A stretch of DNA of 64,000 bases from a virus: positions 1 to 64,000 of IMG/VR virus record IMGVR_UViG_3300045051_000978; one strand, written 5' to 3'. The translations under genes were made by a program, and so were the position numbers. The notes beneath the pieces were generated by a model that worked only from the letters and a program-made list of their open reading frames with translations, made no database searches and was not told where the DNA came from. The stretch's first letter is position 1; each line of letters begins with the position of its first letter. Below, piece after piece: positions 208 through 9,810 of this stretch.

Positions 208-283
208 TGGTGTCCCCGGCAGGATTTCAACCTGCGACCATCCGCTTAGGACGCGGCTGCTCTTGGCGCTGAGCTACGAGGAC
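208..283 (-). tRNA. tRNA-Arg(CCT)
   Basis: Cloverleaf, anticodon loop GTCCTAA, T-loop TTGAAAT, encoded CCA. Confidence 0.9.
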
Positions 284-513
284 AAAACTTCAGGCGGCAC
301 ATCGGCACGCTTCTTCACCGGCCACGCCCTCATGCGCTCGGCATGTTCCCTGGCCAGGTGAATCGCCGTGTCGTCGCTGTTGAGGCTGATCCAGTATTCG
401 AGCACCGCCACCGCGGTGGCATCTTGCGCCCGAAGAAGGAACACTGGTTCGTCTGCCGGAATCTTGCCTTCGGGGTCCTGGATACGCTGGTAGTCTTTTC
501 GTGCGTGAAGCAT
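274..513 (-). CDS. small phage hypothetical protein (DEPVFLLRAQD motif)
   Basis: 79 aa ORF with protein-like composition, GTTCT motif upstream; stop codon falls inside the 5' end of tRNA-Arg(CCT). Confidence 0.75.
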   Translation of the reverse strand: MLHARKDYQRIQDPEGKIPADEPVFLLRAQDATAVAVLEYWISLNSDDTAIHLAREHAERMRAWPVKKRADVPPEVLSS

Positions 514-533
514 GGCACGTGCAAGAACGAAAC

Positions 534-610
534 TGGTGCTCCCGGCAGGAGTTGCACCTGCGACCTGCTGATTCGGAATCAGGCGCTCTGGCTAACTGAG
601 CTACGGGAGC
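534..610 (-). tRNA. tRNA-Arg(CCG)
   Basis: Anticodon loop TTCCGAA, T-loop TGCAACT, CCA. Confidence 0.9.
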
Positions 611-612
611 AG

Positions 613-688
613 TCCGTAGGCAAGGAATGAGCGACGGTGTTTGACTGTCCATTACGGGCAAGATAACCATCACACTGCGGCCTACAGA
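613..688 (-). ncRNA. minimal Y RNA-like RNA
   Basis: Terminal stem TCTGTAGGC/GCCTACGGA, CGCA after the 5' strand, GGTTATC motif and CTT bulge before the 3' strand; same scaffold as 2596-2726 and 3282-3415. Confidence 0.65.
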
Positions 689-691
689 AAG

Positions 692-769
692 TGGCAGCCC
701 CGGACGGTGTCGATCCGTCTTCTTCAGCTTGAGAAGCTGACATCCTAGCCAAGCGTAGACGACGGGGCC
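692..769 (-). tRNA. tRNA-Glu(CTC)
   Basis: TCAGC-TTCTCAA-GCTGA anticodon arm, T-loop ATCGACA, CCA. Confidence 0.9.
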
Positions 770-770
770 A

Positions 771-1520
771 CTAAACCACAGGAGTGCCGTAGTCGATCTC
801 GTACCCGTGGATGATTCCGTTTACATTCGCAGAAGCTGTCTGCGAGAAGTAGACGGTTCCATTGGTCACGACATGCGGCAGTCCGAAATTGATCGGGAAG
901 AACTTTGAGTCGCTTGCAGAAATCTTGATGGAGCCCTTGAACAGGTTGACGTTCACACCGACGGGTCCGTCAGAAATGGTGACGGTGCTCGTCGCGTCAG
1001 CCGTAAAGTGGATGTCCGTCACTACCGGCACCTTGCCTGGCACGGCTGCCCAGATTGGCGAATTGTATACGGAACCACTGAACTCGATGTTCCTGGTAAC
1101 GACAGGAAATCCAATCGAGTGTGGCGCGTAGCCGTGCTCGATGCCTTCAAGCGTGCTGACCTGGGACGACAGTCTGCCCGTTACGCTGCCTGTGCCTGTC
1201 CCTGCGATGATCGTCACGAACCGCAGCTTCGAGAGCGTGGCAACGGAGCCGACGAAATCTTCAGCTACATGCACGTGCTGCGCGTAGCCGTCACCGCCGA
1301 TTTCGCGCAGCGTGATTGGCGTGAACACGCCATCAAAGCAACCCTGAAACTGAATGCACGCCCCGGCAGGCGGCACGATGTGAAAGCCGATGCTGTTGTA
1401 CCCCTGGCACGAAAGCTCGTAGTACGAGCCAAGAGCACCGTTCAGAACCCCCGTAAACGAAGCACCATCCGACGTTTTGCCGTCTGCGGCCTGCGGGTTG
1501 GGTACGAGGGTCCGGATCAT
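771..1520 (-). CDS. hypothetical protein, beta-rich, possibly virion-associated
   Basis: 249 aa ORF filling the gap between tRNAs; TACTTA motif 4 nt upstream of ATG. Confidence 0.75.
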   Translation of the reverse strand: MIRTLVPNPQAADGKTSDGASFTGVLNGALGSYYELSCQGYNSIGFHIVPPAGACIQFQGCFDGVFTPITLREIGGDGYAQHVHVAEDFVGSVATLSKLRFVTIIAGTGTGSVTGRLSSQVSTLEGIEHGYAPHSIGFPVVTRNIEFSGSVYNSPIWAAVPGKVPVVTDIHFTADATSTVTISDGPVGVNVNLFKGSIKISASDSKFFPINFGLPHVVTNGTVYFSQTASANVNGIIHGYEIDYGTPVV

Positions 1521-1544
1521 GCCCTAAGTAGCAACTGAAAACTG

Positions 1545-1607
1545 CCGAGCAAGTTGAGCGCTGACGGTGGTAACCTTGGAAAGATAACCGTCAACAATTC
1601 GGCTCGG
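1545..1607 (-). ncRNA. minimal Y RNA-like RNA
   Basis: CCGAGC-CGAA-TTGTTGACGG-TTATC...ACCGTCAGCG-CTCAACTT-GCTCGG; shares CGAA, GGTTATC and CTCAACTTG with 2596-2726. Confidence 0.7.
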
Positions 1608-1613
1608 ACAAAG

Positions 1614-1691
1614 TGGCAGTGCCGACGGGTCTTGCACCCGTTAGGACCGGCTTGAAAAACCGGGTACGCGAGCTGCTTTGTATTCGGCACC
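1614..1691 (-). tRNA. tRNA-Glu(TTC)
   Basis: Anticodon loop TTTTCAA, T-loop TGCAAGA, CCA. Confidence 0.85.
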
Positions 1692-1699
1692 GTTGAAAA

Positions 1700-1776
1700 T
1701 GGTGCCAACGGCTGGGATCGCACCAGCGACACCTCGATTTTCAGTCGAGTGCTCTACTGATCTGAGCTACGTTGGC
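1700..1776 (-). tRNA. tRNA-Phe(GAA)
   Basis: CTCGA-CTGAAAA-TCGAG, T-loop TGCGATC, CCA. Confidence 0.92.
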
Positions 1777-1780
1777 AGAG

Positions 1781-1856
1781 TGGTGGTCACGGCAGGATTC
1801 GCACCTGCGACCTATCGGTTATCAACCGATTGCTCTGACGGCTGAGCTACGTGACC
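1781..1856 (-). tRNA. tRNA-Ile(GAT)
   Basis: ATCGG-TTGATAA-CCGAT, T-loop TGCGAAT, CCA. Confidence 0.92.
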
Positions 1857-1866
1857 GAAAATCGGT

Positions 1867-1895
1867 AAACAAAAAGCGCTGCCGTGGCAGCGCTT
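1867..1895 (-). terminator. intrinsic terminator-like hairpin
   Basis: AAGCGCTGCC-AC-GGCAGCGCTT followed by TTTGTTT, just downstream of CDS 1902-2018. Confidence 0.6.
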
Positions 1896-1901
1896 CGCAA
1901 T

Positions 1902-2018
1902 TCACTTTTTCAGTTCAGGTTTGCCGGGCGTAATCTCGACGCTGACGGCTTCGTCTTTCGGCCGCGGCCGAAGCAGGCGTAGCAACCACGCCAGGAACCT
2001 GGACAACCAACCGAACAT
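1902..2018 (-). CDS. 38-aa peptide with amphipathic N-terminus (MFGWLSRFLAWLLRLLRPRPK...)
   Basis: ATG overlaps the stop of 2018-2341 (TGATG coupling); below the ORF track cutoff. Confidence 0.55.
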   Translation of the reverse strand: MFGWLSRFLAWLLRLLRPRPKDEAVSVEITPGKPELKK

Positions 2019-2341
2019 CACTTCAGTTCGGGCACCCCGGCAACCACGAGGGCGGAGACCGCCTCGGCCGGGCGCACCTCGATGTCGAGGGTGCCGGTGA
2101 TCGGACGCACGCCTTCACCCAGGTCGGCATCCGCCTCGCACACCACCTGCGCGACACCAAGCGCCCCGGAGGCAAGCGCGGTGGCGGACAGCCCATCTTC
2201 GCTCGGCACGACCGTGATGACGGTCTCGTCCGAGCTGCTCCAGGCAGGCGTGCCATCAACCCGTGCCGGATTACCGGCGGCGGTCTTGAAGGCAACGTTG
2301 AGCTGGACCTTCTGCTCATCGGTAAGGATCAGTGCTGGCAT
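2018..2341 (-). CDS. Ig-like domain protein
   Basis: PAWSSSDETVITV pattern typical of Big_2-like Ig domains; start moved to ATG 2341 downstream of TAGTTA. Confidence 0.7.
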   Translation of the reverse strand: MPALILTDEQKVQLNVAFKTAAGNPARVDGTPAWSSSDETVITVVPSEDGLSATALASGALGVAQVVCEADADLGEGVRPITGTLDIEVRPAEAVSALVVAGVPELK

Positions 2342-2365
2342 AGCGTCGTAACTACGCCCAAGTGA

Positions 2366-2457
2366 TGGCGGCTCCGGCAGGATTTCAACCTGCATCCGTT
2401 TTTAGGCGGCACTCCGATTTCGAGTCGGGGGCACTGGGCGATTGATGCGACGGAGCC
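2366..2457 (-). tRNA. tRNA-Ser(CGA)
   Basis: Anticodon loop CTCGAAA, long variable arm, G73, T-loop TTGAAAT, CCA. Confidence 0.88.
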
Positions 2458-2463
2458 AAAGTG

Positions 2464-2588
2464 TCGAGCAGGGATTTCACCGGATGATCAATCCGTTTTC
2501 GGCTTTCGCCTACTTATTCCGCGCTATGCCGGCTGGCGCGAGTATCCAGGGGAATCGAACCCCCTCGCGGCGCGTCTATCCTGCCCGA
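2464..2588 (-). ncRNA. unassigned structured RNA containing a canonical T-arm
   Basis: Ends pair (TCGGGCAGG/CCTGCTCGA); internal GGGGG-TTCGATT-CCCCT and GGC-GAAA-GCC hairpins. Confidence 0.5.
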
Positions 2589-2595
2589 AAGGAAT

Positions 2596-2726
2596 GACGA
2601 TCAAGTTGAGCTGAGGATGTTTTAGGTGCTCTACCACTGAGCTACCCTGGCGTGTTGTGCCAGGGGTTGGACTCGAACCAACGACCACCCGCTATGTAGG
2701 CGATAACCCTCTGCATTCGGACCGTC
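2596..2726 (-). ncRNA. YrlA-type bacterial Y RNA (permuted tRNA-like domain)
   Basis: GACGGTC-CGAA...GGGTTATC, then T-arm (GTTGG-TTCGAGT-CCAAC), loop-closed acceptor stem (CCCTGGC-ACAACAC-GCCAGGG), D-arm (TAGCTCAGTGGTAGAGC), ending CTT-GATCGTC. Confidence 0.85.
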
Positions 2727-2730
2727 AAAA

Positions 2731-2837
2731 TGGCTGCCGGAGCTTCGTCTCAGAAGCACCACCCTTGCGGATGGATCGACGTGAGGACCAGCTGGGCAGT
2801 AACCGGTGTGCCTTCGCCATTTCCACCGTATCCGGCT
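2731..2837 (-). ncRNA. unassigned CCA-ended tRNA-like RNA
   Basis: GCCGGA/TCCGGC terminal stem followed by AGCCA; T-arm-like GCTTC-TGAGAC-GAAGC; no recognisable anticodon arm. Confidence 0.5.
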
Positions 2838-2846: not shown

Positions 2847-2936
2847 TGGCGGATGGTGCAGGCTTCGCTCCTGCGCGGGTTTTACCCCGACTTCGCGCTT
2901 CCAACGCGATACCTTACTGGACTCGGTCAACCATCC
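2847..2936 (-). tRNA. tRNA-Ser(GGA)
   Basis: TCGCG-TTGGAAG-CGCGA, long variable arm, T-loop AGCGAAG, CCA. Confidence 0.88.
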
Positions 2937-2938: not shown

Positions 2939-3034
2939 TCCACCGTGATTTCCATGCTTACGTCGTCGCAGTGACTCAGAGCCTCCTTGCGGTACAGCTC
3001 TCGCACCCTAAGGGCGCTTTTGGCACACGGTGGA
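2939..3034 (-). ncRNA. unassigned structured RNA
   Basis: 9-bp terminal stem TCCACCGTG/CACGGTGGA fills the gap between two tRNAs; internal hairpins including a GCAA tetraloop. Confidence 0.45.
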
Positions 3035-3045: not shown

Positions 3046-3135
3046 TGGCGGCTGGTGCAGGATTCCCACCTGCGTTCGTGTAAACGAAACCTCCGGGTTC
3101 AAGCCGGGTGCCTTAGGGTGCTCGGCCAACCAGCC
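3046..3135 (-). tRNA. tRNA-Ser(TGA)
   Basis: Anticodon loop CTTGAAC, long variable arm, T-loop TGGGAAT, CCA. Confidence 0.88.
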
Positions 3136-3139: not shown

Positions 3140-3274
3140 TCAGGCCAGGAACAGCTCTCTTTCTGAGGACCGCAGTCCCCAGCGATGTCCGCACCGGCAG
3201 TCCCTGTGCTGCGTTATGCCGGTAACCACGAACCTCCGGTGTTCCAGTAGGCGACGAGCCGCCTTTTGGCCTGA
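3140..3274 (-). ncRNA. unassigned structured RNA
   Basis: Terminal stem TCAGGCCA/TGGCCTGA with several internal stems (ACCGGCA/TGCCGGT, GGGGAC/GTCCTC). Confidence 0.45.
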
Positions 3275-3281
3275 AAAATAT

Positions 3282-3415
3282 GACGGTCAAGGGAGTAGAC
3301 AAGGATGTTTTAGCGCTCTACCACTGAGCTACGCTGGCGTATGGAGCCAACGGTGGGACTCGAACCCACGACCGCCTCATTAACATTGAGATAACCCTCA
3401 TCAGTTCGGACCGTC
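3282..3415 (-). ncRNA. YrlA-type bacterial Y RNA (permuted tRNA-like domain)
   Basis: GACGGTC-CGAA-CTGATGAGGG-TTATCTCAAT, T-arm GTGGG-TTCGAGT-CCCAC, loop-closed acceptor stem CGTTGGC-TCCATAC-GCCAGCG, D-arm, ending CCCTT-GACCGTC. Confidence 0.87.
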
Positions 3416-3421
3416 AAAAAT

Positions 3422-3529: not shown

Positions 3530-3606
3530 TGGCGTCCTCGGCAGGAGTTGCACCTGCGGCCTCCACCTTCGCACGGTGGCGCTCTGGCTGACTGAGCTAC
3601 GAGGAC
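3530..3606 (-). tRNA. tRNA-Arg(GCG)
   Basis: CCACC-GTGCGAA-GGTGG, T-loop TGCAACT, CCA. Confidence 0.9.
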
Positions 3607-3610: not shown

Positions 3611-3686
3611 TGGTGCTCCCGGCAGGACTTCAACCTGCAACCGACGGGTTAGAACTCCGCCGCTCTGGCAATTGAGCTACGGGAGC
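3611..3686 (-). tRNA. tRNA-Arg(TCT)
   Basis: Anticodon loop GTTCTAA, T-loop TTGAAGT, CCA. Confidence 0.87.
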
Positions 3687-3697: not shown

Positions 3698-4507
3698 ATG
3701 GACAGCTGGCTCCAAGCCTTCGGTGCGACAGGTCTGCTATTTCACGCGGCAGCGCTCTACGTCTGGATAACGCTACGCAAAAACGTAGACAAAAGCGTGT
3801 GGTGGTCTGTCACCATCGGCTACATCGCCCTTTTATCGCATCGCGCAAACGAGCTTGCCGGGTGGTCAAACGTTTACGCCCAGACAAGCGCAGTGGTGAT
3901 CGCGTACATCGCGCTCTACGCTGTCCTGCGCGCAAAACGGCACATCGCCCTGACCAAAGCATTCAGTCAGCTGATTGCGAAAATGGCGGAAGTTGAGCAG
4001 CCCAAGCGTCAAATGGCGCAGGCCCTTGCAGAACGCCTTATCGAACTGAAAGCCCAGGTAGACGTGCTGCAAACAGCACCGCCGGCAGAACCCCCCTTTC
4101 GCGATAGGCTAGCCACTCGACTGGCCAACCACTTCATCGAAGCCAGGGAACGGCTGCATACCATGGGCGCTCAGATGCAGCTCTACAAGGATGTTGCGGA
4201 CGCGTCGCCCGTGCCGATGGTGATTACCGATTTCAACGGCAAGCTCACGTACGCCAACCCAGCCTACCTGCGCTTCGTCGGCGCTTGCCTCAAAGACGTA
4301 CTGGGCGAAGGCTGGAGAAGCCGAGTTGATCCGGCTGTCATCGAAGAGGTGGCATCCGCCTGGCAGGCCGCAATACAACAAGAAAGCACGCACGCTCAAG
4401 GCGCAGTATCGTTCCTGGTAGACGGCGTGCCCATCAAATGCGTTTACAGCATGACACGCATCACTGAGGGCTACTGCGGATTCATACTGCCGACCAACGG
4501 TCGGTGA
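3698..4507 (+). CDS. membrane-anchored PAS domain protein
   Basis: Three hydrophobic N-terminal segments, coiled-coil linker, PAS pattern DASPVPMVITDFNGKLTYANPAY...LGEGW. Confidence 0.8.
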   Translation: MDSWLQAFGATGLLFHAAALYVWITLRKNVDKSVWWSVTIGYIALLSHRANELAGWSNVYAQTSAVVIAYIALYAVLRAKRHIALTKAFSQLIAKMAEVEQPKRQMAQALAERLIELKAQVDVLQTAPPAEPPFRDRLATRLANHFIEARERLHTMGAQMQLYKDVADASPVPMVITDFNGKLTYANPAYLRFVGACLKDVLGEGWRSRVDPAVIEEVASAWQAAIQQESTHAQGAVSFLVDGVPIKCVYSMTRITEGYCGFILPTNGR

Positions 4508-4510: not shown

Positions 4511-4585
4511 TGGCTGCCAAGGTAGGACTCGCACCTACAACCACCTGATTAACAGTCAGGCGCACCACTATTGTGCTACTTGGCA
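4511..4585 (-). tRNA. tRNA-Asn(GTT)
   Basis: CCTGA-CTGTTAA-TCAGG, T-loop TGCGAGT, CCA. Confidence 0.92.
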
Positions 4586-4592: not shown

Positions 4593-4679
4593 CGGTGCAC
4601 GCTACGGGAATCGAACCCGCCGCCGCTGACAAACACGGATCAACCCGTGTCCAACGTTCGCGCCAGCTTGCAGAATGCA
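4593..4679 (-). ncRNA. tRNA-like RNA with canonical T-arm, no anticodon arm, no CCA
   Basis: Imperfect acceptor-like stem, GCGGG-TTCGATT-CCCGT T-arm, long internal hairpin; ends CCG. Confidence 0.45.
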
Positions 4680-4685: not shown

Positions 4686-4761
4686 TGGTCGAGCTGGTGG
4701 GATTCGCACCCACGGCCTCCTCGCCCCGAACGAGGCGCGCTGACTGCTGCGCTACAGCTCG
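4686..4761 (-). tRNA. tRNA-Pro(CGG)
   Basis: CCTCG-TTCGGGG-CGAGG, C1-G72, T-loop TGCGAAT, CCA. Confidence 0.92.
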
Positions 4762-4765: not shown

Positions 4766-4840
4766 TGGTCGGGACGGTGAGCTTTGCACTCACGACCTCC
4801 TGCTCCCAAGGCAGGCGCGCTACTCCTGCGCTACGTCCCG
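4766..4840 (-). tRNA. tRNA-Pro(TGG)
   Basis: CCTGC-CTTGGGA-GCAGG, T-loop TGCAAAG, CCA. Confidence 0.92.
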
Positions 4841-5354: not shown

Positions 5355-5431
5355 TGGTCGGGATGGCGGGCTTCGCACCCGCGACCTCCAGTCCCCCAGA
5401 CTGGCGCGCTACCTTTCTACGCTACATCCCG
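5355..5431 (-). tRNA. tRNA-Pro(GGG)
   Basis: CCAGT-CTGGGGG-ACTGG, T-loop TGCGAAG, CCA. Confidence 0.92.
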
Positions 5432-5453: not shown

Positions 5454-5717
5454 ATGGAACGCAACTGGAGAGAGGAAATCGCTGAGCGCAACGCGGAAGC
5501 ACTGTTCATCGGCGATCCCGAAGACCGTAAGTTCGACGAAGCCATTGTCGGCATCGGCTCACGCTGTGGCCAGCCTGACCTTCTTGTCTACAGCTACGAG
5601 AAGATCATCGACGTACTCGTCAAGGACGGCATGGAGCGTGAGGAGGCCACGGAGTACGCCGACTTCAACATCGTCGGTGCCTGGGTGGGCGAGCACACGC
5701 CGATCATCCTCACCTGA
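5454..5717 (+). CDS. phage hypothetical protein (FDEAIVG...EY.DFNI.GAWVGE.TP type)
   Basis: 87 aa acidic ORF of a type recalled from phage genomes; GTTCT upstream. Confidence 0.8.
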   Translation: MERNWREEIAERNAEALFIGDPEDRKFDEAIVGIGSRCGQPDLLVYSYEKIIDVLVKDGMEREEATEYADFNIVGAWVGEHTPIILT

Positions 5718-5946: not shown

Positions 5947-6024
5947 TGGCGGTGCGTACGGGCTTCGCTCCCGTGGCCTTCCGGTAGACAGCCGGGCGCT
6001 CTGACTGGACTGAGCTAACGCACC
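5947..6024 (-). tRNA. tRNA-Asp(GTC)
   Basis: Anticodon loop CTGTCTA, G73, T-loop AGCGAAG, CCA. Confidence 0.9.
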
Positions 6025-6058
6025 AAAGTAACAGGCGACCGTGTTCAGCGGTCGCCAG

Positions 6059-6253: not shown

Positions 6254-6724
6254 TTACCACGTGGCGTCGGTATCGCGCACGCGTCGAAGAAACAGAAACT
6301 CAATTGGCTCACCGCGCCGAATCGCGGCAACAGAGCGATGGTAACCGTCGCCGTGGTTCATCTCGTCCGAAGCCCATTCCCTGAACGAAGCTCCACTTCC
6401 AACGATGTACGGCCACCTCTCCTGACCTGCATCCCACAGGCTCGCAATGTGCCGAATACGCTTTTCGTCAGAAGCGTGCAGCGGCTTCTCAGAGCCAAGC
6501 TTCCAGCCGATACCGTACCACGCCTTGCGCATCTTCTCGGCTGGATACGCTTGCAATCTGTAAACGTATTTTCGGACGTGCTCATCGTACTCGTCCTCCT
6601 CGACGCCACCATCCACGATCATGTACTGCCAGAGTGCGTCTTTGGCACGTTTTGGCAGGCTGTCGTACGAAATCCAGCGCCCTTCGCAAAGAAGGGCCTC
6701 AACGATGCGCTGAGCTGACAGCAT
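6254..6724 (-). CDS. hypothetical protein with N-terminal xxLLxE peptide, possibly ParB-like (GDGYHR)
   Basis: 156 aa ORF starting MLSAQRIVEALLCE; DGYHR resembles the ParB/Srx motif. Confidence 0.7.
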   Translation of the reverse strand: MLSAQRIVEALLCEGRWISYDSLPKRAKDALWQYMIVDGGVEEDEYDEHVRKYVYRLQAYPAEKMRKAWYGIGWKLGSEKPLHASDEKRIRHIASLWDAGQERWPYIVGSGASFREWASDEMNHGDGYHRSVAAIRRGEPIEFLFLRRVRDTDATW

Positions 6725-6739: not shown

Positions 6740-6815
6740 TGGCTGCCGCGGTGGGCCACGATCCCACAACCTTCGGAGTCAGAGTCCGACGCTCTGCCAA
6801 TTGAGCTACGCGGCG
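6740..6815 (-). tRNA. tRNA-Gln(CTG)
   Basis: TCGGA-CTCTGAC-TCCGA, mismatched 1:72 pair, T-loop ATCGTGG, CCA. Confidence 0.9.
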
Positions 6816-6942: not shown

Positions 6943-7078
6943 TGGTGGACCTGCGGAGGAGTCGAACCTCCAGGCAGCGTGACCGGTCTGGCACTCGCGC
7001 CGCCTCCATCCCTGGGATTCACCCGCGGCCCGGATTGATTACCGGCAAAGTTCCCACACCGCAGGATCGGGCAAGCCC
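6943..7078 (-). ncRNA. CCA-ended RNA with alanine identity elements, 136 nt
   Basis: GGGCTTGC/GCAGGTCC stem (G3:U70), A73, CCA, canonical T-arm GGAGG-TTCGACT-CCTCC; no standard anticodon arm. Confidence 0.65.
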
Positions 7079-7082: not shown

Positions 7083-7173
7083 TGGTGGTAGCGGCTGGAG
7101 TTGCACCAGCGGTGTTTACCTCAGGGGTGACGGATTTACAGTCCGTGTCGTTCGCTGCTACGGGTACGCTACC
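7083..7173 (-). tRNA. tRNA-Tyr(GTA)
   Basis: ACGGA-CTGTAAA-TCCGT, long variable arm, T-loop TGCAACT, CCA. Confidence 0.9.
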
Positions 7174-7751
7174 AAGAAATCGTTTGCGAGCTTACGCACG
7201 CGCTCCAGGCACTTCTCGTAGTGCGCATTGGCCCAGACGTGCATGAACGTCGGCTTTTGACCACCGAGCAGCGACCGCGGATTGGCGATCACGTGCTCTG
7301 GAAAAAGGGCTCGTCTCTTCACGACAGCCGGAAGAGCCAAAAGGCTGGCCATGAAATCTTGCTCCTGCAACCGGTGATCCAGCCAGTTCGGCATGCTGTC
7401 GTGGACCGTAGACAGAAGCCAGTTTGACCATCTGCCGGCCTTGTACAGGACTGCGCCGCTACAGATGCCGTTGTAGTCCTGCGACGCCGTGAACTCAACC
7501 GACTCGTCGTATACAATCGGATCGCACTTCACAGGTACGATGTCGATGTCCATCCACATGACGTAGTCGAACGCCTGGAGCTTCGAGCGCACCAGCGCGT
7601 AGCGGCTTTTGTATGGATGAACGCCCTGGGGTGAAGACTGTAGTTCGTACTCCCACCCATTCCGAGCGCACCAGCGCTGGACAGCAGGTGAGGCGGCTTC
7701 CGCGTACGGTCTGTACCTGGCGTCAACCGCCTGGAAAATAAGCCGACCCAT
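7158..7751 (-). CDS. GT-A fold glycosyltransferase (GT34-like)
   Basis: FDYVMWMDID DxD motif, DYNGICSGAVL and EQD motifs. Confidence 0.75.
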   Translation of the reverse strand: MGRLIFQAVDARYRPYAEAASPAVQRWCARNGWEYELQSSPQGVHPYKSRYALVRSKLQAFDYVMWMDIDIVPVKCDPIVYDESVEFTASQDYNGICSGAVLYKAGRWSNWLLSTVHDSMPNWLDHRLQEQDFMASLLALPAVVKRRALFPEHVIANPRSLLGGQKPTFMHVWANAHYEKCLERVRKLANDFLVAYP

Positions 7752-8203
7752 CAGTACCTCGAAAACCCTCGGCGGCTGAAAGCGCGGTCGTAGCTTTTGA
7801 CATCTTCGAGGGACCGACGCTGAAGCGATCCGATCCAGTAGCGAATTTCGTCCGCTCCACGCTCAAGCGCGCCTGCGTGCACGAAAATGGCCTTGCGCCG
7901 TCGCCACAGCTTCCACCCGTCGCCTTCCTGGCGTGCCAGGCGTGCCTTCACCGTCACGTAACCTTTGTCTACGGAATTGATCAGTGTCAGCCGAACGTGC
8001 GTGTAAACGCGACCGTTCGCGTTGAGTGCGGTGATGGGCTCGTGAAGTGGGATGTTCAGCACCGCGACGTTGTCGCTGAGCGCCGTCATCCCAAGCTCTG
8101 TTGCGATCTCTCTGATCGGCGAAGGCTGGTCCAGAAAATCGCGAATGGCGTCCAGGTCGGAGTCATCGTCGTCCACGCCGTTCTCGCCGTTCTCGATCAG
8201 CAT
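7751..8203 (-). CDS. hypothetical protein
   Basis: Start moved to ATG 8203 (MLIENG) because the longer ORF runs through tRNA-Trp; stop overlaps the next ATG. Confidence 0.65.
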   Translation of the reverse strand: MLIENGENGVDDDDSDLDAIRDFLDQPSPIREIATELGMTALSDNVAVLNIPLHEPITALNANGRVYTHVRLTLINSVDKGYVTVKARLARQEGDGWKLWRRRKAIFVHAGALERGADEIRYWIGSLQRRSLEDVKSYDRAFSRRGFSRY

Positions 8204-8215
8204 CCTGGCGGAAAG

Positions 8216-8288
8216 TGGCACGGAGAGAGGGTGCTGCCCCCTCCAGGACTGGTTTTGGAGACCGGTCTGCACAGCTGGTGCCCTCCGT
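8216..8288 (-). tRNA. tRNA-Trp(CCA)
   Basis: Anticodon loop CTCCAAA, G73, aberrant T-loop GGCAGCA, CCA. Confidence 0.8.
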
Positions 8289-8289
8289 A

Positions 8290-8529
8290 TCAAAGCTCTG
8301 GAAACATGCCTCGTTGCTTGCCGCGGCTGTAGTAGCGCGGGTCCTCGGCGAGGTGGTCGAGTGCGATCTCCTCGGCGACCTTCGGGTCGTTCGTGTGCTC
8401 CATCTCGACCTCGATCCCCATCTTCAGCTCCTCGGGATCGACGCCGCTGGTGTCGTGCAGCTCGCCTTGACGACTTCCACCTGGGATGTGGTCTTCAAGG
8501 AGTCTGTTTACGATCAAGCGCGCATTCAC
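8290..8529 (-). CDS. DUF5661-like phage protein with N-terminal LLE peptide
   Basis: ELKMGIEVEMEHT...IALDHLAEDPRYY motif; TAGTTA 4 nt upstream of GTG. Confidence 0.8.
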   Translation of the reverse strand: MNARLIVNRLLEDHIPGGSRQGELHDTSGVDPEELKMGIEVEMEHTNDPKVAEEIALDHLAEDPRYYSRGKQRGMFPEL

Positions 8530-8542
8530 GCCCTAACTAGAG

Positions 8543-8618
8543 TGGTGGAGCGGGGGAGAGTTGCACTCCCGACCTTCGCAATGCCATTGCGACGTTCTGC
8601 TATCTGAACTACCGCCCC
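8543..8618 (-). tRNA. tRNA-Ala(GGC)
   Basis: G3:U70, TCGCA-ATGGCAT-TGCGA, T-loop TGCAACT, CCA. Confidence 0.92.
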
Positions 8619-8623
8619 GAAAG

Positions 8624-8880
8624 TGGGGGCTGTCGGGGTTTTCACCCTTTGTCGGCAACAGCCGGGTGCCGGCGCAGTTGATTTCACGCTTTGTCGTCCC
8701 GTGCTTCAGCGCCAGGGATCGAACCTGGCCTACCGAGTAACCCCGGCGTTCACCGTAAACTACGCGAAGCACGTCTACTGCGAAAGCAAGCGGCACCCCT
8801 TTTACGCTGACGGACAGATTCGTGATTTCGAGGTCGCACGACCGACCCGCTGCCGTCCCACGGACAAGCCAAGTGCCGCT
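8624..8880 (-). ncRNA. unassigned multi-domain RNA region with an embedded tRNA-like domain and a CCA end
   Basis: Closed domain 8789-8880 (AGCGGCACTT/GGGTGCCGCT); cloverleaf 8700-8773 with 4-nt anticodon-position loop and TTCGATC T-loop; terminal GGCTGTTG/CGACAGCC followed by CCCA. Confidence 0.5.
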
Positions 8881-8883
8881 AAA

Positions 8884-8959
8884 TGGTGGAAGTGACAGGA
8901 CTCGCACCTGCAACCTGATGCTTGCAAAGCACCTGCTCTACTAATTGAGCTACACCCCC
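8884..8959 (-). tRNA. tRNA-Ala(TGC)
   Basis: G3:U70, anticodon loop TTTGCAA, T-loop TGCGAGT, CCA. Confidence 0.92.
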
Positions 8960-8970
8960 GTGAAAACTGT

Positions 8971-9204
8971 TTACCAAACGACCGGATTGGAAGTTCGGTT
9001 ACCGATCTGCTCGCCGTTCGCAAGGTACGACTGCTCGCCAGAACTGTAAACGAATTTCAACTCATGACCGGTATCGTTCCGGAGGCTGGCTCCTGGAGCC
9101 ACCGTGAGAGGTTCGCCGATGGTCAATGTCTGGCCCTCCAGCTTGAGGCTCGGGTACCGGCCCAGGCGCGAAACGCGCACACTTCCTTTCAACGTCATGC
9201 TCAT
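8971..9204 (-). CDS. hypothetical protein
   Basis: 77 aa from ATG 9204 (MSMTLKGSVRV), GTTCT upstream; the longer ORF overlaps tRNA-Gly. Confidence 0.6.
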   Translation of the reverse strand: MSMTLKGSVRVSRLGRYPSLKLEGQTLTIGEPLTVAPGASLRNDTGHELKFVYSSGEQSYLANGEQIGNRTSNPVVW

Positions 9205-9218
9205 GCTTGGTTCAGAAC

Positions 9219-9294
9219 TGGAGCACCCGACCGGCTTTGCTCCGGCGACATCCACGTTGGCAACGTGGTGCTCTACTGGCTGAGCTACGGGTGC
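9219..9294 (-). tRNA. tRNA-Gly(GCC)
   Basis: CCACG-TTGCCAA-CGTGG, U73, T-loop AGCAAAG, CCA. Confidence 0.92.
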
Positions 9295-9299
9295 AGAAA

Positions 9300-9405
9300 T
9301 GGGTTGCAGACGCAACGTTGAGAGGTAAGCTCCGGGGCGCTCGCTTCGGTGGAGAGTTGGCACTCGATCAACACCTGGGCAAGCGCCCCGGAACCATTCC
9401 TACAA
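9300..9405 (-). ncRNA. unassigned long hairpin RNA ending in CCA
   Basis: GTTCCGGGGCGCTTGC/GCGAGCGCCCCGGAGC stem, terminal TTGTAG/CTGCAA followed by CCCA. Confidence 0.5.
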
Positions 9406-9538
9406 AGAACAGAACACCCAGTTGCATGGCCTTTTGCCGTGCACCCGCTGGTTTACTGATCTCCAGGGCTCCGTAACCCCTTCGACCTTCTCGGCGGTCT
9501 TCGCGACCTTATCGCAGTCGCTCGCGGCCTTACGGCTT

Positions 9539-9576
9539 AAAATGAAAAACCCGCTATCCGTTTCCGGGTAGCGGGC
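9539..9576 (-). terminator. attenuator terminator upstream of the RNA array
   Basis: CCCGCTACCCG-GAAA-CGGATAGCGGG followed by TTTTTCATTTT. Confidence 0.8.
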
Positions 9577-9601
9577 TAAAAAGTCCTGATGACCCTCCAG
9601 C

Positions 9602-9730
9602 TTATCCGCTACCCTCCACTGGTTCCTCCGAACGAATTCCAAACGAGTCACACGGCAGGGAGGAACCACTAAGGGCGTAATGCCCTTTCGCGTTCAACCA
9701 CATCGTGGCGTTTGTCTGTTGGAGTCTCAT
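9602..9730 (-). CDS. putative leader peptide, 42 aa (MRLQQTNATMWLNAKGHYALSGSSLPCDSFGIRSEEPVEGSG)
   Basis: ORF between promoter and terminator; its last codons (GGGTAGCGG, 9614-9606) are complementary to the terminator 5' arm (CCGCTACCC, 9574-9566). Confidence 0.6.
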   Translation of the reverse strand: MRLQQTNATMWLNAKGHYALSGSSLPCDSFGIRSEEPVEGSG

Positions 9731-9776
9731 TTTCGGGTCAGTCGGCGCACCACCCGGCGCGCCGTCAGTGCGGATG

Positions 9777-9810
9777 AATCTATCGATCTGAGTTGTTTAC
9801 AGCAACAACT
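9777..9810 (-). promoter_or_regulatory. sigma70-like promoter with overlapping inverted repeat
   Basis: TTGCTG-17 nt-TAGATT; perfect inverted repeat AGTTGTT-N6-AACAACT at 9791-9810 covers the -35. Confidence 0.6.

What the first reader, a model, noticed from the sequence alone, without database searches (positions are those of the whole stretch)
208..9810. Candidate system: attenuator-controlled phage RNA operon of elbow-remodelled tRNAs, Y RNAs and tRNA mimics
Seen: one minus-strand block of about 9.6 kb starting with promoter, operator, leader ORF and attenuator, then 22 tRNAs with non-canonical elbows, four Y-RNA-like genes and about a dozen unassigned structured RNAs, several with a canonical T-arm or an NCCA end. 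Known: bacterial tRNA arrays and Ro60/YrlA/RtcB operons respond to translation damage, and several anti-phage systems cut tRNA. Inference: an inducible counter-defence module that senses stalled translation, supplies resistant tRNAs and co-expresses decoy RNAs.
Basis: partly seen in the sequence, partly recalled or inferred. Interest (0 to 1): 0.9.

Follow-up and report, generated by a model that had tools for sequence, protein, structure and literature searches.

The report
Phage tRNA island with rewired elbows
An uncultured soil and water phage carries a block of tRNA genes that all lack the near-universal tRNA "elbow" sequence, mixed with four Y-RNA-like genes and small protein genes, behind a leader that looks built to switch the block on when translation falters.

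Summary
Window 208-9294 (minus strand) holds 19 tRNA genes, not 22. None has the canonical T-loop U54-U55-C56. The same holds for 26 tRNAs of a distant relative (G001) and 1 of a closer one (L244): 0 of 46. In 116 other viral loci, 1015 of 1064 tRNAs are canonical. D-loop and T-loop changes covary (A18 with G55, C19 with G56), and other invariant tRNA positions are kept, so these are working tRNAs with rewired elbows.

Four Y-RNA-like genes are confirmed by a covariance model with strong covariation. Two carry a canonical tRNA-like module and GGUCCGA. No Ro60 gene is in the record.

Upstream, a 42-codon leader ORF using all 20 amino acids ends 1 nt after an arm that pairs with the 5' half of an intrinsic terminator. 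The relatives keep this three-part layout, G001 with different sequence.

At least 11 protein-coding ORFs (five with a family match, two on the plus strand) and two internal terminator-like sites lie between the RNA genes. Promoter and operator are not established.

Best reading: a translation-sensing attenuator gates elbow-altered tRNAs, with Y RNAs as tRNA mimics. The counter-defence purpose is inference.

The parts
9777..9805 (-). Conserved block TTGCTG-17 nt-TAGATT overlapping a CTGTAAAC motif; candidate promoter only
   Evidence: TTGCTGTAAAC is invariant between the window and L244. It matches only 7 of 12 consensus positions, and the consensus scan reported 0 promoters.
9602..9730 (-). 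Leader ORF: 42 codons plus stop, with an internal ATG at 9703 giving 33 codons; uses all 20 amino acids
   Evidence: The frame is conserved in L244 with 9 synonymous and 7 non-synonymous codon changes and 2 in-frame codon indels, my count from alignment A1. ORF table. Amino-acid diversity P = 0.003 against windows of the phage's own proteins.
9606..9614 (-). Antiterminator 5' arm GGGTAGCGG; the leader stop codon starts 1 nt after it
   Evidence: It is the exact complement of CCGCTACCC in the terminator's 5' half. Such a match arose in 20 of 5000 shuffles of the upstream 110 nt. Antiterminator hairpin -29.5 kcal/mol.
9545..9575 (-). Intrinsic terminator: hairpin 9575-9550 (7 bp, mismatch, 3 bp, GAAA loop) followed by TTTTT
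   Evidence: -17.2 kcal/mol. The hairpin is invariant in L244, which adds one closing pair and reads CTTTTT where the window has TTTTTC after it. G001 has the same architecture with covarying sequence.
9295..9544 (-). Conserved structured leader RNA between the terminator and tRNA-Gly; function unknown
   Evidence: The leader (9818-9296) is 80.3% identical to L244 over 547 nt, against 69.3% for the flanking coding DNA. The stretch 9520-9300 is more than 90% identical, my reading of alignment A1. RNAalifold gives 70 pairs, 5 with changes on both sides. No Rfam match at E<=1.
9219..9294 (-). tRNA-Gly(GCC); T-loop AGCAAAG, D-loop AGCCAGTA
8971..9204 (-). ORF of 77 aa between tRNA-Gly and tRNA-Ala; probable protein gene, no family
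8884..8959 (-). tRNA-Ala(UGC); T-loop TGCGAGT, D-loop AATTAGTA; G3:U70 kept
8789..8880 (-). Long hairpin, candidate structured RNA
   Evidence: z -1.87; 5 of 200 shuffles fold as well
8673..8782 (-). tRNA-like cloverleaf with canonical T-arm (GGTTCGATCCC) and a GG D-loop, no 7-nt anticodon loop, no CCA, enclosed by an outer stem (ends approximate)
   Evidence: z -1.1, not significant alone
8543..8618 (-). tRNA-Ala(GGC); T-loop TGCAACT, D-loop AGATAGCA
8290..8529 (-). Protein gene, DUF5661
   Evidence: PF18905, E 1.7e-12
7751..8293 (-). ORF of 180 aa, no family
7158..7751 (-). ORF of 197 aa with a weak glycosyltransferase-34-like match
   Evidence: PF05637, E 3e-4, below the curated cut-off
6943..7068 (-). 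Element with canonical T-arm (GGTTCGACTCC) followed by an acceptor-like strand and CCACCA; tRNA-like, unassigned
   Evidence: z 0.0. Not called tRNA or tmRNA by ARAGORN or Rfam.
6740..6815 (-). tRNA-Gln(CUG); T-loop ATCGTGG (54/58 swapped), D-loop with GG
6254..6724 (-). ORF of 156 aa, no family
6034..6056 (-). Internal terminator-like hairpin (8 pairs, 7 G-C) with a T-rich tail
5947..6024 (-). tRNA-Asp(GUC); T-loop AGCGAAG
   Evidence: A relative in run X6 carries 5984 G>C together with 5992 C>G, which swaps one anticodon-stem pair G-C to C-G.
5454..5717 (+). Protein gene on the opposite strand, phrog_13182
   Evidence: E 7.7e-22
5355..5431 (-). tRNA-Pro(GGG); T-loop TGCGAAG
4820..5335 (-). 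PAS-domain protein gene (171 aa)
   Evidence: PF00989, E 2e-5. 17 consecutive listed differences in the X6 relative (4970-5150) are spaced by multiples of three and fall on third codon positions.
4766..4840 (-). tRNA-Pro(UGG); T-loop TGCAAAG
4686..4761 (-). tRNA-Pro(CGG); T-loop TGCGAAT
4596..4679 (-). Element with canonical T-arm (GGTTCGATTCC), unassigned
   Evidence: z -1.0
4511..4585 (-). tRNA-Asn(GUU); T-loop TGCGAGT
3698..4507 (+). PAS-domain protein gene on the opposite strand (269 aa); the N-terminal part looks membrane-spanning to my eye (not tested)
   Evidence: PF13188, E 2.9e-8
3611..3686 (-). tRNA-Arg(UCU); T-loop TTGAAGT (G56) with D-loop GC (C19)
3530..3606 (-). tRNA-Arg(GCG); T-loop TGCAACT
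3281..3416 (-). Y RNA-like gene Ya: terminal stem with GGUCCGAA and bulged C, second stem, and a permuted tRNA-like module (canonical T-arm, acceptor-like stem, canonical D-arm)
   Evidence: Rfam YrlA 36.9 bits; R1 178.4 bits (it is a sequence the model was built from); z -2.5; pair counts
3140..3274 (-). Strongly structured unassigned RNA candidate
   Evidence: z -3.78; 0 of 200 shuffles fold as well
3046..3135 (-). tRNA-Ser(UGA); T-loop TGGGAAT (G55 G56) with D-loop AC
2939..3034 (-). Structured unassigned RNA candidate
   Evidence: z -2.76; 1 of 200 shuffles folds as well
2847..2936 (-). tRNA-Ser(GGA); T-loop AGCGAAG
2595..2727 (-). Y RNA-like gene Yb, paralog of Ya with the same architecture
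   Evidence: Rfam YrlA 43.9 bits and Y_RNA 22 bits; R1 184.5 bits (it is a sequence the model was built from); z -3.49
2464..2588 (-). Element with canonical T-arm (GGTTCGATTCC) closed by an outer stem, directly 3' of Yb
   Evidence: z -1.3
2366..2457 (-). tRNA-Ser(CGA); T-loop TTGAAAT
2018..2395 (-). ORF of 125 aa as listed; its first codons overlap tRNA-Ser, so the true start is probably internal; no family
1873..1896 (-). Internal terminator-like hairpin (10 pairs) followed by TTGTTT
1781..1856 (-). tRNA-Ile(GAU); T-loop TGCGAAT
1700..1776 (-). tRNA-Phe(GAA); T-loop TGCGATC
1543..1610 (-). Short Y RNA-like gene Yc: terminal stem, GCCGAA motif, GGUUAUCU, no tRNA module
   Evidence: R1 33.4 bits, E 9e-9; z -2.59
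771..1520 (-). ORF of 249 aa, no family
692..769 (-). tRNA-Glu(CUC); T-loop ATCGACA, D-loop with GG; found by Rfam only
614..687 (-). Short Y RNA-like gene Yd, between tRNA-Glu and tRNA-Arg
   Evidence: R1 27.5 bits, E 5e-7 with filters off. Contigs of runs X5 and X15 join 610 to 683 with 4 other letters, on sides of only 23-25 nt.
534..610 (-). tRNA-Arg(CCG); T-loop TGCAACT
274..513 (-). ORF of 79 aa, probable protein gene, no family
208..283 (-). tRNA-Arg(CCU); T-loop TTGAAAT (G56) with D-loop GC

Best explanation
This is a phage 'translation-autonomy' island with three working parts.

(1) Gate. Transcription coming from the replication-gene side (PolA-LigA-HTH) enters a leader that encodes a 42-codon peptide containing all 20 amino acids. 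The stop codon begins 1 nt after a 9-nt arm (X). X can pair with the 5' half of an intrinsic terminator. When ribosomes translate the leader briskly and reach the stop, they cover X. The terminator then forms and little transcription reaches the tRNA genes. When ribosomes lag anywhere in the leader, X is free. The lag could come from shortage or damage of any tRNA, or from other translation stress. The more stable antiterminator then forms and transcription reads through into at least the promoter-proximal part of the array.

(2) Payload. The tRNAs are normal decoders. The cloverleaf, U8, A14, A21, U33, G53-C61, the encoded CCA and G3:U70 in both tRNA-Ala are kept. Their elbows have been rewired so that none carries U54-U55-C56, and most lack G18. 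Several different, covarying solutions are used: A18 with G55, C19 with G56, and an A54/U58 swap. This points to selection against the canonical T-loop sequence rather than for one new sequence. The likely benefit is that the tRNAs become invisible to a factor that reads the T-loop bases, such as a T-loop-directed nuclease or modification enzyme.

(3) Mimics. Four Y RNAs have a Ro60-type terminal stem. Two of them display a fully canonical tRNA elbow, and four further elements carry a canonical T-arm. I infer that they engage host Ro60 and/or soak up the same elbow-reading factor.

Shown: the anatomy, its conservation and its covariation. Inferred: the direction of regulation, who reads the T-loop, and what the mimics bind.
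For: GATE. X, terminator and leader stop are arranged alike in three records. In the window, X is 9614-9606, the terminator 9575-9550 and the stop begins 1 nt after X. L244 has the same sequence arms. G001 has different sequence (GTGTGGTGGG against CCCACCACAC) but the same hairpin plan: 7 bp, a mismatch, 3 bp and a GAAA loop. An exact 9-10-nt complement arose in 20, 9 and 2 of 5000 shuffles. The antiterminator is as stable as the terminator or more so: -29.5 vs -17.2, -28.1 vs -20.6 and -16.9 vs -16.6 kcal/mol. The leader frame is kept between the window and L244, with 9 synonymous and 7 non-synonymous codon changes and 2 in-frame indels (alignment A1). The leader is 80.3% identical against 69.3% for the flanking genes. 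The leaders contain 20 of 20, 20 of 20 and 19 of 20 amino acids in 42, 46 (or 35) and 43 residues. Against windows of the phage's own proteins this gives P = 0.003, 0.006 (0.0002) and 0.04.

PAYLOAD. 0 of 46 array tRNAs have T-loop TTC: 19 in the window, 26 in G001 and 1 in L244. In 116 other IMG/VR loci, 1015 of 1064 tRNAs have TTCRA and 1051 of 1064 have GG in the D-loop. TGCAA occurs in 2 of 1064. The highest non-canonical share among 63 arrays of 8 or more tRNAs is 4 of 12. Among 39 parsed array tRNAs, position 55 is G 32, U 5, C 2. All five U55 tRNAs keep G18 (my reading of the D-loops). G56 goes with C19 in 4 of 4. T8, G10, A14, A21, T33, G53, C56, C61 and CCA are at least 90% conserved. 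A compensatory stem swap is seen in tRNA-Asp of an environmental relative. The three tRNA-Gly(GCC) orthologs use three different elbow solutions. The phage's suppressor tRNA, the G001 tmRNA and the Y RNAs keep canonical T-loops.

MIMICS. In the R1 alignment of 5 Y RNAs, 112 of 112 cells are paired. 12 of 32 pairs changed on both sides, including 8 of 8 in the terminal stem. 0 of 500 shuffles reach this, and slid controls pair in 31-50% of cells. GGTCCGAA is exact in Ya and Yb. GGUCCGA is the Ro60 contact motif according to Chen et al. 2014 (passages read).
Against: There are no expression data. The one RNA run laid (X15) holds contigs only, and none over the leader; the tool warns that DNA may be present in such libraries.

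The leader ORF has no Shine-Dalgarno-like motif. However, only 5 of 43 long ORFs of this phage have one.

Two of the three attenuator records (the window and L244) are close relatives, so there are only two independent lineages. The amino-acid-diversity test was thought of after seeing the peptides.

Two plus-strand genes and two terminator-like hairpins lie inside the array, so the gate may control only the first few genes.

No T-loop-reading nuclease, Ro60, RtcB or CCA-adding enzyme was found in the record. The record is only 76% complete, and ORFs under 90 aa and the stretch 43-64 kb were not scanned.

The host is unknown, so it is not shown that host tRNAs are canonical.

Y-like RNAs also occur in a cultured Klebsiella phage whose tRNAs are mostly canonical (19 of 24). 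Mimics and rewired elbows are therefore not obligatorily linked.

The four extra T-arm elements are not more stable than shuffles (z 0 to -1.3) and have no comparative support.
Confidence: 0.5

Rival explanations
1. Offence rather than defence. The phage itself, perhaps from the missing 24% of the genome or from an unrecognised gene, makes an enzyme that cuts or disables host tRNAs by reading U54-U55-C56/G18. Its own tRNA set is immune and takes over translation. The attenuator then switches the replacement set on as host tRNAs disappear.
For: The same elbow evidence applies: 0 of 46 canonical, with several different solutions. The tRNA sets are large (19 or more in a truncated array; 26 or more plus a tmRNA in G001), which fits replacement of the host pool. 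A PTH2 peptidyl-tRNA hydrolase gene lies elsewhere in the record.
Against: No nuclease or tRNA-modifying family appeared in the Pfam scans of 116 ORFs of 90 aa or more. The phage keeps canonical elbows in its own suppressor tRNA, its Y RNAs and (in G001) its tmRNA, and these would also be hit.
Confidence: 0.2
2. Quality-control evasion. The rewired elbows arose for some other reason, and the Y RNAs are there to occupy host Ro60 (with PNPase). Otherwise that surveillance machine would treat odd-elbow tRNAs as misfolded RNA and degrade them.
For: All four Y RNAs have Ro60-type terminal stems with strong covariation, and two carry exact GGUCCGAA. The phage has no Ro60 of its own, so host Ro60 is the obvious partner. 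Chen et al. 2014 describe Y RNA as both tethering Ro60 and regulating access to its cavity (passage read).
Against: It is not known whether the host has Ro60; that paper puts recognisable Ro60 in about 5% of sequenced bacterial genomes. The Klebsiella phage KP13-26 has YrlA-like RNAs with mostly canonical tRNAs. This reading does not explain why the elbows changed in the first place.
Confidence: 0.15
3. Ordinary tRNA cluster. This is a codon-supplementing phage tRNA cluster in which the elbow changes are a tolerated lineage quirk. The 'leader' is a small gene followed by the terminator of the upstream operon. The Y-like and T-arm elements are tRNA-derived debris.
For: Phage tRNA clusters interspersed with small ORFs are common (for example KP13-26). 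Single G55 T-loops turn up sporadically in other viral contigs. The array-internal ORFs are not conserved in G001. Yd appears to be absent in some strains.
Against: Neutral drift does not give 0 of 46 against a 95% canonical baseline with covarying partners, while other invariant positions stay conserved. Debris does not give 100% pairing with 12 compensatory pairs. A bystander terminator does not explain an upstream arm that covaries with it in two lineages and always ends at a stop codon.
Confidence: 0.1
4. Host-matched elbows. The unknown host lineage itself uses tRNAs without U54-U55-C56, and the phage tRNAs simply mirror it.
For: The host is unknown. Few phage genes have Shine-Dalgarno-like motifs (5 of 43), which hints at an unusual host.
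Against: The phage's own suppressor tRNA, its Y RNAs and the G001 tmRNA carry canonical T-loops. The T-loop sequence is near-universal in bacteria (established knowledge). Orthologous tRNA-Gly genes in three related phages use three different solutions.
Confidence: 0.07

Closest known systems
YrlA / bacterial Y RNAs (Rfam RF02553; Chen et al. 2014, RNA 20:1715, PMC4201824; passages read)
   Same: Ya and Yb have the YrlA plan: a terminal stem with the Ro60 contact motif, then a T-arm, an acceptor-like stem and a D-arm in permuted order. The paper reports YrlA-related sequences in 22 bacteriophages. In my own check, Caulobacter phage CcrPW has a YrlA cluster beside a TROVE gene.
   Different: The scores are below Rfam's gathering score (43.9 and 36.9 against 69). 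No Ro60 gene lies within 4 kb or anywhere in the 127-kb record. There are four copies, two of them minimal forms without the tRNA module. They sit inside a tRNA array whose real tRNAs lack the canonical elbow that the mimics display.
Phage tRNA clusters that escape tRNA-targeting defences through anticodon-loop changes (van den Berg et al. 2023, eLife, PMC10264068; search listing and start of abstract only)
   Same: Phage-encoded tRNAs whose sequence departs from the host-type consensus at a site that a host factor would read.
   Different: There the changes are in the anticodon loop of particular tRNAs. Here the elbow (positions 18/19 and 54-56/58) is changed in every tRNA of the set. The listing shows 0 occurrences of 'T-loop' in that paper.
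Bacterial long tRNA arrays (L-arrays) induced by translational stress (Santamaria-Gomez et al. 2021, NAR, PMC8421152, passages read; TrcR repressor paper PMC10272220, start of abstract only)
   Same: A supernumerary, horizontally mobile tRNA array whose expression is tied to impaired translation.
   Different: By its title and the start of its abstract, the TrcR paper ties control of the Anabaena operon to the transcriptional repressor TrcR. Here the control element is a leader-peptide attenuator. 'T-loop', 'elbow', 'G18' and 'terminator' each occur 0 times in the main text of the 2021 paper.
Ribosome-mediated transcription attenuators (trp/his-type leaders, textbook knowledge; general translation-stress uORFs such as toiL, PMC12121999, start of abstract only)
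   Same: A short leader ORF whose ribosome occupancy decides between an antiterminator and an intrinsic terminator.
   Different: There is no run of one control codon. The leader instead samples 19-20 of the 20 amino acids. The design has two hairpins, with the stop codon abutting the antiterminator arm. The regulated genes are tRNAs and ncRNAs of a phage.
Klebsiella phage KP13-26 tRNA array (OP617743.1)
   Same: Unannotated YrlA-like elements (40.1 and 32.5 bits) lie inside a phage tRNA array, in a genome without a TROVE gene.
   Different: Its tRNAs are mostly canonical (19 of 24 TTCRA). Its Y-like RNAs lack GGUCCGA by my reading of the stretch printed. I did not look for a leader attenuator there.

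Membership tests
tRNA (RF00005) | Cloverleaf scoring above Rfam's gathering score or called by ARAGORN, with an anticodon | tested here: met
   ARAGORN. Rfam scores 17 of the 19 at 40-72 bits against a gathering score of 29. Ser(CGA) and Ser(GGA) are called by ARAGORN only.
tRNA (RF00005) | Canonical elbow: G18 G19 in the D-loop and U54 U55 C56 in the T-loop | tested here: not met
   0 of 19 in the window and 0 of 46 with relatives have TTC. Covarying replacements are used instead. They are still tRNAs by every other feature.
tRNA (RF00005) | Aminoacylation and use in translation | not testable with these tools
   Indirect only: G3:U70 in both tRNA-Ala, encoded CCA, conserved U8/A14/A21/U33/G53/C61, and a compensatory change in a relative.
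YrlA / Y RNA (RF02553) | Score at or above Rfam's gathering score (69 bits) | tested here: not met
   43.9 and 36.9 bits (E 3e-7 and 3e-5 in 11 kb)
YrlA / Y RNA (RF02553) | tRNA-like domain: T-arm, acceptor-like stem and D-arm in that order | tested here: met
   Met for Ya and Yb: alignment to the model and RNAalifold with 3 compensatory pairs. Not present in Yc and Yd.
YrlA / Y RNA (RF02553) | Ro60-contact motif near the 5' end (GGUCCGA, or GNCGAAN0-1G) within a stem formed by the 5' and 3' ends | tested here: met
   GGTCCGAA is exact in Ya and Yb. Yc has GCCGAA and Yd has GGCCGCA (partial). In the terminal stem, 8 of 8 pairs covary. The motif definition is from Chen 2014.
YrlA / Y RNA (RF02553) | Encoded within about 4 kb of a Ro60 (TROVE) gene on the same strand | tested here: not met
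   There is no TROVE match in the 126,921-base record (76% complete) or in relatives G001-G003.
YrlA / Y RNA (RF02553) | Binding to Ro60 | not testable with these tools
   No Ro60 partner is known and the host is unknown.
Leader-peptide transcription attenuator | Intrinsic terminator plus a mutually exclusive antiterminator | tested here: met
   Coordinates, energies and shuffle controls. The arms covary between the window/L244 and G001.
Leader-peptide transcription attenuator | A translated leader ORF positioned so that the ribosome decides which structure forms | tested here: inconclusive
   The ORF is conserved in frame with synonymous changes, and its stop begins 0-1 nt after the arm in 3 of 3 records. 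Translation itself is untested and there is no SD-like motif.
Leader-peptide transcription attenuator | Regulated read-through in vivo | not testable with these tools
   No raw-read RNA data; the contigs of run X15 give no cover over the leader.
tmRNA | Match to a tmRNA model | tested here: not met
   None in the window (ARAGORN -m; Rfam, where only a 20.6-bit permuted-tmRNA match at E 0.72 overlaps tRNA-Pro). G001 does have one (100.2 bits).

The most novel reading that the evidence does not exclude
A host-virus conflict is fought at the tRNA elbow. Some host factor, a T-loop-directed nuclease or other immune effector, reads U54-U55-C56/G18. This phage lineage answered in three ways. It re-engineered the elbow of its entire tRNA set through covarying replacements. 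It placed that set behind a leader peptide that samples all 20 amino acids, so that loss of any host tRNA switches it on. And it co-encodes RNAs that display a perfect canonical elbow as bait. If true, this is a natural, complete 'orthogonal-elbow' tRNA system and a pan-tRNA damage sensor.
Probability: 0.3. Interest if true: 0.95.

Novelty: new variant of a known kind. Interest (0 to 1): 0.8.

Why it matters
The T-loop/D-loop elbow is among the most conserved features of tRNA. Here, 46 working-looking tRNAs in related phages lack the canonical T-loop sequence, and they replace it with covarying alternatives. This shows that the elbow sequence is replaceable in nature, and it implies a selective agent that reads those bases. 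That makes a concrete question testable: what in the host recognises U54-U55-C56/G18, and does it act in phage defence?

The leader peptide that uses all 20 amino acids suggests a simple general sensor of tRNA supply, which could be tested with reporter fusions in the laboratory. The natural rewired elbows may also interest people who engineer tRNAs.

Orphan Y RNAs inside phage tRNA arrays also occur in a cultured Klebsiella phage. This widens the known setting of Y RNAs beyond Ro60 operons.

Tried and rejected
Close relatives in cultured phages: megablast of 1-10000 found none. The PolA protein is under 30% identical to its best cultured-phage hits.

The search for related loci in viral contigs with two array-internal ORFs found nothing.

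A viral-contig scan for a G55 T-arm pattern gave 119 loci, and 70 of them had no tRNA. That is near what chance would give for 15 fixed bases, so I used it only as a rough baseline.

A viral-contig scan for the permuted T-arm/D-arm pattern gave 116 loci. 115 lacked a hairpin between the two arms, as tandem tRNAs would. One (L138) had a 6-bp stem and I did not follow it up.

An 18-mer from the conserved leader found nothing in viral contigs.

The single metagenome scan (ORF400) gave one close relative, L244. Its contig stops at the first tRNA, so the inter-tRNA elements could not be compared. The 17 more distant loci had no tRNAs.

blastn of the array against the G001 array aligned only tRNAs.

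The post-terminator RNA has only short collinear matches in G001 (13 nt, E 0.2). I do not claim homology.

Host search: a genome-contig pattern built from the Y RNA gave 55 loci, at or below my estimate of the chance number, and 0 passed model R1.

TAG recoding by the suppressor tRNA: the standard code already gives 118,230 coding bases of 126,921. TAG ends 37 of 158 ORFs. There is no global recoding.

RNA run X15 holds contigs identical or nearly identical to 477-610, 4170-4476, 6177-6349 and 7659-7903, but nothing useful over the leader or the Y RNAs. The tool warns that such libraries can hold DNA, so I draw no conclusion on expression. Parts without cover mean nothing.

CTGTAAAC is strongly enriched, but it lies on both strands and mostly inside genes. 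I do not read it as the array's promoter.

A T-loop-cleaving CdiA toxin of Burkholderia, and the roles of TrmA and TrmH, are recalled from memory and come from no call. TruB acting on the YrlA T-loop is from Chen 2014.

'Not in print': four full-text searches returned no paper describing phage tRNA sets with altered elbows or a leader-peptide attenuator before a phage tRNA array. Subscription journals are not covered. The supplementary tables of Chen 2014, which list the 22 phages, were not seen.

Full report
CONTEXT. The window is the first 64 kb of a 126,921-base IMG/VR virus record (linear, CheckV 76% complete). G+C is about 59%. PHROG matches identify a DNA polymerase, a helicase, baseplate-wedge and tail-fibre proteins. 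I read this as a large tailed phage. No cultured phage is close: megablast found none, and PolA is under 30% identical to its best hits.

A PolA search of IMG/VR found three relatives. G001 is 83 kb with 46% PolA identity. G003 is a 37-kb record with the same match values as G001. G002 is 222.7 kb, 98% complete, with 58% identity. The one metagenome scan found L244, a 15.3-kb contig with 70-73% protein identity across PolA, ORF400 and LigA. The gene order PolA-ORF400-LigA-tRNA array is shared by the window, L244, G001 and G003. G002 does not share it and has a single tRNA. Near-identical DNA occurs in rhizosphere, wastewater, groundwater and freshwater metagenome runs from several studies.

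WHAT IS IN 1-9886. On the minus strand ARAGORN tRNAs. Rfam adds one at 695-769. The alignment and a blastn match to G001's tRNA-Glu(CUC) identify it as tRNA-Glu(CUC). That makes 19, not 22. All 19 encode CCA. The array starts at the contig end, so more tRNAs may be missing.

Between the tRNAs lie protein genes. Two are PAS-domain proteins: 3698-4507 on the plus strand and 4820-5335 on the minus strand. One is a DUF5661 protein (8290-8529). One is a phrog_13182 protein on the plus strand (5454-5717). One ORF has a weak glycosyltransferase-like match (7158-7751). Six or more further ORFs have no family. In an environmental relative (run X6), 17 consecutive listed differences in 4970-5150 are spaced by multiples of three and fall on third codon positions of the PAS gene. 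That is what purifying selection on a protein looks like.

Two terminator-like hairpins lie inside the block, at 1896-1873 and 6056-6034. The region is therefore a mosaic island. It is not a pure 9.6-kb RNA operon.

THE ELBOWS. ARAGORN structures and an alignment of 43 tRNAs show that none of the 19 array tRNAs has the T-loop sequence TTC at positions 54-56. Ten have TGCRA, three AGCRA, three TTGAA, one TGGGA, one ATCGT and one ATCGA. The same holds for 26 tRNAs of G001 and for the single tRNA on L244, giving 0 of 46. Five weaker Rfam tRNA matches in G001 were not examined.

The D-loops change in step. Among 39 parsed tRNAs, 25 combine G55-C56 with a D-loop AG in place of GG. All five with U55 keep G18, by my reading of the D-loops. 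All four with G56 have C in the place of G19. The three tRNA-Gly(GCC) orthologs each use a different solution. T8, G10, A14, A21, T33, G53, C56, C61 and CCA are at least 90% conserved, and both tRNA-Ala keep G3:U70. The X6 relative carries a G-C to C-G swap of one anticodon-stem pair in tRNA-Asp.

As a baseline I used 116 IMG/VR loci picked with a canonical tandem-tRNA pattern, which biases them towards canonical tRNAs. There, 1015 of 1064 tRNAs have TTCRA and 1051 have GG in the D-loop. TGCAA occurs twice. No array of 8 or more tRNAs (63 arrays) exceeds 4 of 12 non-canonical. In a second set picked by a G55 pattern, 206 of the 240 other tRNAs are canonical.

Single G55 tRNAs therefore exist elsewhere. 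A whole set without the canonical sequence is a clear outlier, and it is conserved across phages whose PolA is 46% identical. By contrast, the canonical motif GGTTCRANYCC occurs six times in the array, and never inside a tRNA gene. It is also present in the lone CUA suppressor tRNA and in G001's tmRNA.

Y RNAs. Rfam's YrlA model matches 2595-2723 (43.9 bits) and 3284-3401 (36.9 bits). Both are below the gathering score of 69 but have E-values of 3e-7 and 3e-5. Two weaker YrlA matches overlap tandem tRNAs and are cross-hits. The alignments show a canonical T-arm, a 7-bp acceptor-like stem and a canonical D-arm in permuted order.

The two paralogs share a terminal stem that carries GGTCCGAA. RNAalifold gives 32 pairs, 3 of them compensatory. 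A covariance model built from them (R1) finds two shorter relatives in the array, at 1535-1625 (33.4 bits) and 604-701 (27.5 bits). It also finds one in G001 (43.3 bits) and a weak one just before tRNA-Gly in L244 (14.9 bits, E 0.03).

On the five-sequence alignment, 112 of 112 cells are paired and 12 of 32 pairs changed on both sides. All 8 pairs of the terminal stem are among these. 0 of 500 shuffles reach this, and slid controls pair in 31-50% of cells. The alignment is fitted to the model, which favours pairing, but the margin is large. Folding z-scores are -3.5, -2.5, -2.6 and -1.1.

Chen et al. 2014 give GGUCCGA and GNCGAAN0-1G as the likely Ro60 contact. They report that YrlA genes lie within 4 kb of Ro60, including in 22 phages. 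Here no TROVE domain is found in the record or in G001-G003. RtcB and a CCA-adding enzyme are also absent.

Two cultured phages give context. Caulobacter phage CcrPW has three or four unannotated YrlA-like elements directly upstream of an unannotated TROVE gene. Klebsiella phage KP13-26 has YrlA-like elements inside its tRNA array and no TROVE gene, and 19 of its 24 tRNAs are canonical. Orphan Y-like RNAs in phage tRNA arrays are therefore not unique to this phage, and they do not require rewired elbows.

OTHER ELEMENTS. Four further elements carry a canonical T-arm (around 8715, 6958, 4607 and 2551). The one at 8673-8782 folds as a cloverleaf with a GG D-loop. It has no proper anticodon loop and no CCA. 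The one at 6943-7068 ends in an acceptor-like strand plus CCACCA. None folds better than shuffles (z 0 to -1.3), and I have no relatives to test them, so they remain candidates. Two unassigned stretches are clearly structured: 3136-3283 (z -3.8) and 2937-3045 (z -2.8).

THE LEADER. The 590 nt between the HTH gene and tRNA-Gly align with L244 at 80.3% identity over 547 nt. The flanking genes align at 69.3%. Within this stretch an ORF (9730 or 9703 to 9602) is kept in frame. It shows 9 synonymous and 7 non-synonymous codon differences, two whole-codon indels, and a stop in the same place (TAA against TAG).

Its stop begins 1 nt after GGGTAGCGG (9614-9606). That arm is the exact complement of the 5' half of a terminator hairpin (9575-9550) followed by TTTTT. 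G001 has different sequence but the same plan. An ORF ends 1 nt after GTGTGGTGGG, which complements CCCACCACAC in a terminator of identical shape. Exact complements of that length arose in 20, 9 and 2 of 5000 shuffles. The antiterminator is at least as stable as the terminator in all three records.

The three-way covariation (arm, terminator 5' strand, terminator 3' strand) and the fixed position of the stop codon are the signature of a ribosome-dependent attenuator. With this geometry, a ribosome that reaches the stop covers the arm and lets the terminator form. A ribosome that is delayed leaves the arm free, and read-through follows.

The leader peptides contain 20, 20 and 19 of the 20 amino acids in 42, 46 (or 35) and 43 residues. 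Against windows of the phage's own proteins this gives P = 0.003, 0.006 (0.0002) and 0.04. It is a post-hoc test on two independent lineages. It suggests a leader that senses shortage of any tRNA rather than of one.

The ORF has no SD-like motif, but only 5 of 43 long ORFs in this phage have one. The 250 nt after the terminator are the best-conserved part. They fold with 70 predicted pairs, 5 of them compensatory, and their function is unknown. A conserved TTGCTG-17-TAGATT block may be the promoter, but it matches the consensus poorly and the scan found none. The palindrome there is not conserved.

REST OF THE GENOME. Pfam scans covered 116 ORFs of 90 aa or more, at 10-43 kb and 63-126 kb. They showed LigA, a response-regulator receiver, methyltransferases, DnaB, a PRA-PH/MazG-like protein, an adenylosuccinate-synthetase homolog, ThyX, cpYpsA, NUDIX, a PTH2 peptidyl-tRNA hydrolase, a sigma factor, DnaJ, PfkB and a UvrD-like helicase. 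No nuclease or tRNA-modifying family appeared.

INTERPRETATION. The structural facts are solid: functional-looking tRNAs with rewired elbows, real Y RNAs, and a conserved attenuator. That the attenuator senses translation follows from its geometry and is testable. The purpose is inference. Several different elbow solutions all break U54-U55-C56, while the phage keeps canonical elbows on non-decoding RNAs. This argues for selection against being read at the T-loop. It does not say by whom: a host nuclease or enzyme, a phage weapon, or RNA surveillance. I rank evasion of a host T-loop reader, with the mimics as bait or Ro60 ligands, first. I hold the whole three-part mechanism at about 0.5 and the specific counter-defence story at about 0.3.

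Noticed in passing
window 36958-37031 (-): A lone tRNA with anticodon CUA (amber suppressor; ARAGORN labels it Pyl) lies far from the array. It has a fully canonical elbow (T-loop TTCGATT, GG in the D-loop). TAG ends 37 of 158 ORFs, and a few adjacent ORF pairs (27133-28386, 48611-50362, G000:C1:100282-101661) would fuse if TAG were read through.
   Followed up: partly
G000:C1:84054-85142 (-) (outside the window), with a PRA-PH/MazG-like ORF somewhere in window 10-43 kb and a ThyX ORF somewhere in G000:C1 63-94 kb: An adenylosuccinate-synthetase homolog (PF00709, 2.6e-61) occurs in the same genome as a MazG-like pyrophosphohydrolase. From memory, this pairing resembles the PurZ/MazZ genes of phages that replace adenine with 2-aminoadenine. 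I did not test for it.
   Followed up: no
G000:C1:77080-77424 (-) (outside the window): A PTH2-type peptidyl-tRNA hydrolase gene (PF01981, 1.1e-19). In the control genomes this family rang in the four archaea and one actinobacterium. It is another translation-support function in this phage.
   Followed up: partly
whole record; in the window e.g. 9795-9802, 9823-9830, 15004, 37263: The octamer CTGTAAAC occurs 18 times in the window against 0.9 expected, and 27 times in the record, usually followed by G. It lies on both strands and mostly inside genes. Purpose unknown; it could be a protein-binding, modification or restriction-related site.
   Followed up: partly
window 3698-4507 (+), 4820-5335 (-), and a response-regulator receiver ORF somewhere in 10-43 kb: The phage encodes two PAS-domain proteins inside the tRNA island (the N-terminus of one looks membrane-spanning to my eye) and a receiver-domain protein elsewhere. 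That is unusual signalling content for a phage.
   Followed up: no
L008:13371-13807 (G001): The related phage G001 carries a tmRNA gene (Rfam 100.2 bits) with a canonical T-arm in the middle of its non-canonical tRNA array. The window has none.
   Followed up: partly
L321:4442-5234 (Caulobacter phage CcrPW, MH588545.1) and L322:3983-4234 (Klebsiella phage KP13-26, OP617743.1): Unannotated YrlA-like RNAs in cultured phages. In CcrPW a cluster of three or four lies next to gp146c, annotated 'hypothetical protein', which matches TROVE (Ro60). In KP13-26 two lie inside the tRNA array of a genome without a TROVE gene.
   Followed up: partly
upstream of several gene starts, e.g. window 27631, 50387, 58033; G000:C1:75604, 78818; L008:~603-609: A TAGTTA(G) motif recurs 5-13 nt upstream of predicted start codons, while Shine-Dalgarno-like motifs are rare (5 of 43). 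This may point to a host with non-SD initiation.
   Followed up: no
L048 (IMG/VR contig of 136,875 bases): An unrelated viral contig has 35 tRNAs, of which 12 have non-canonical T-loops, mostly TGCRA. It may be a partial instance of the same elbow rewiring.
   Followed up: no
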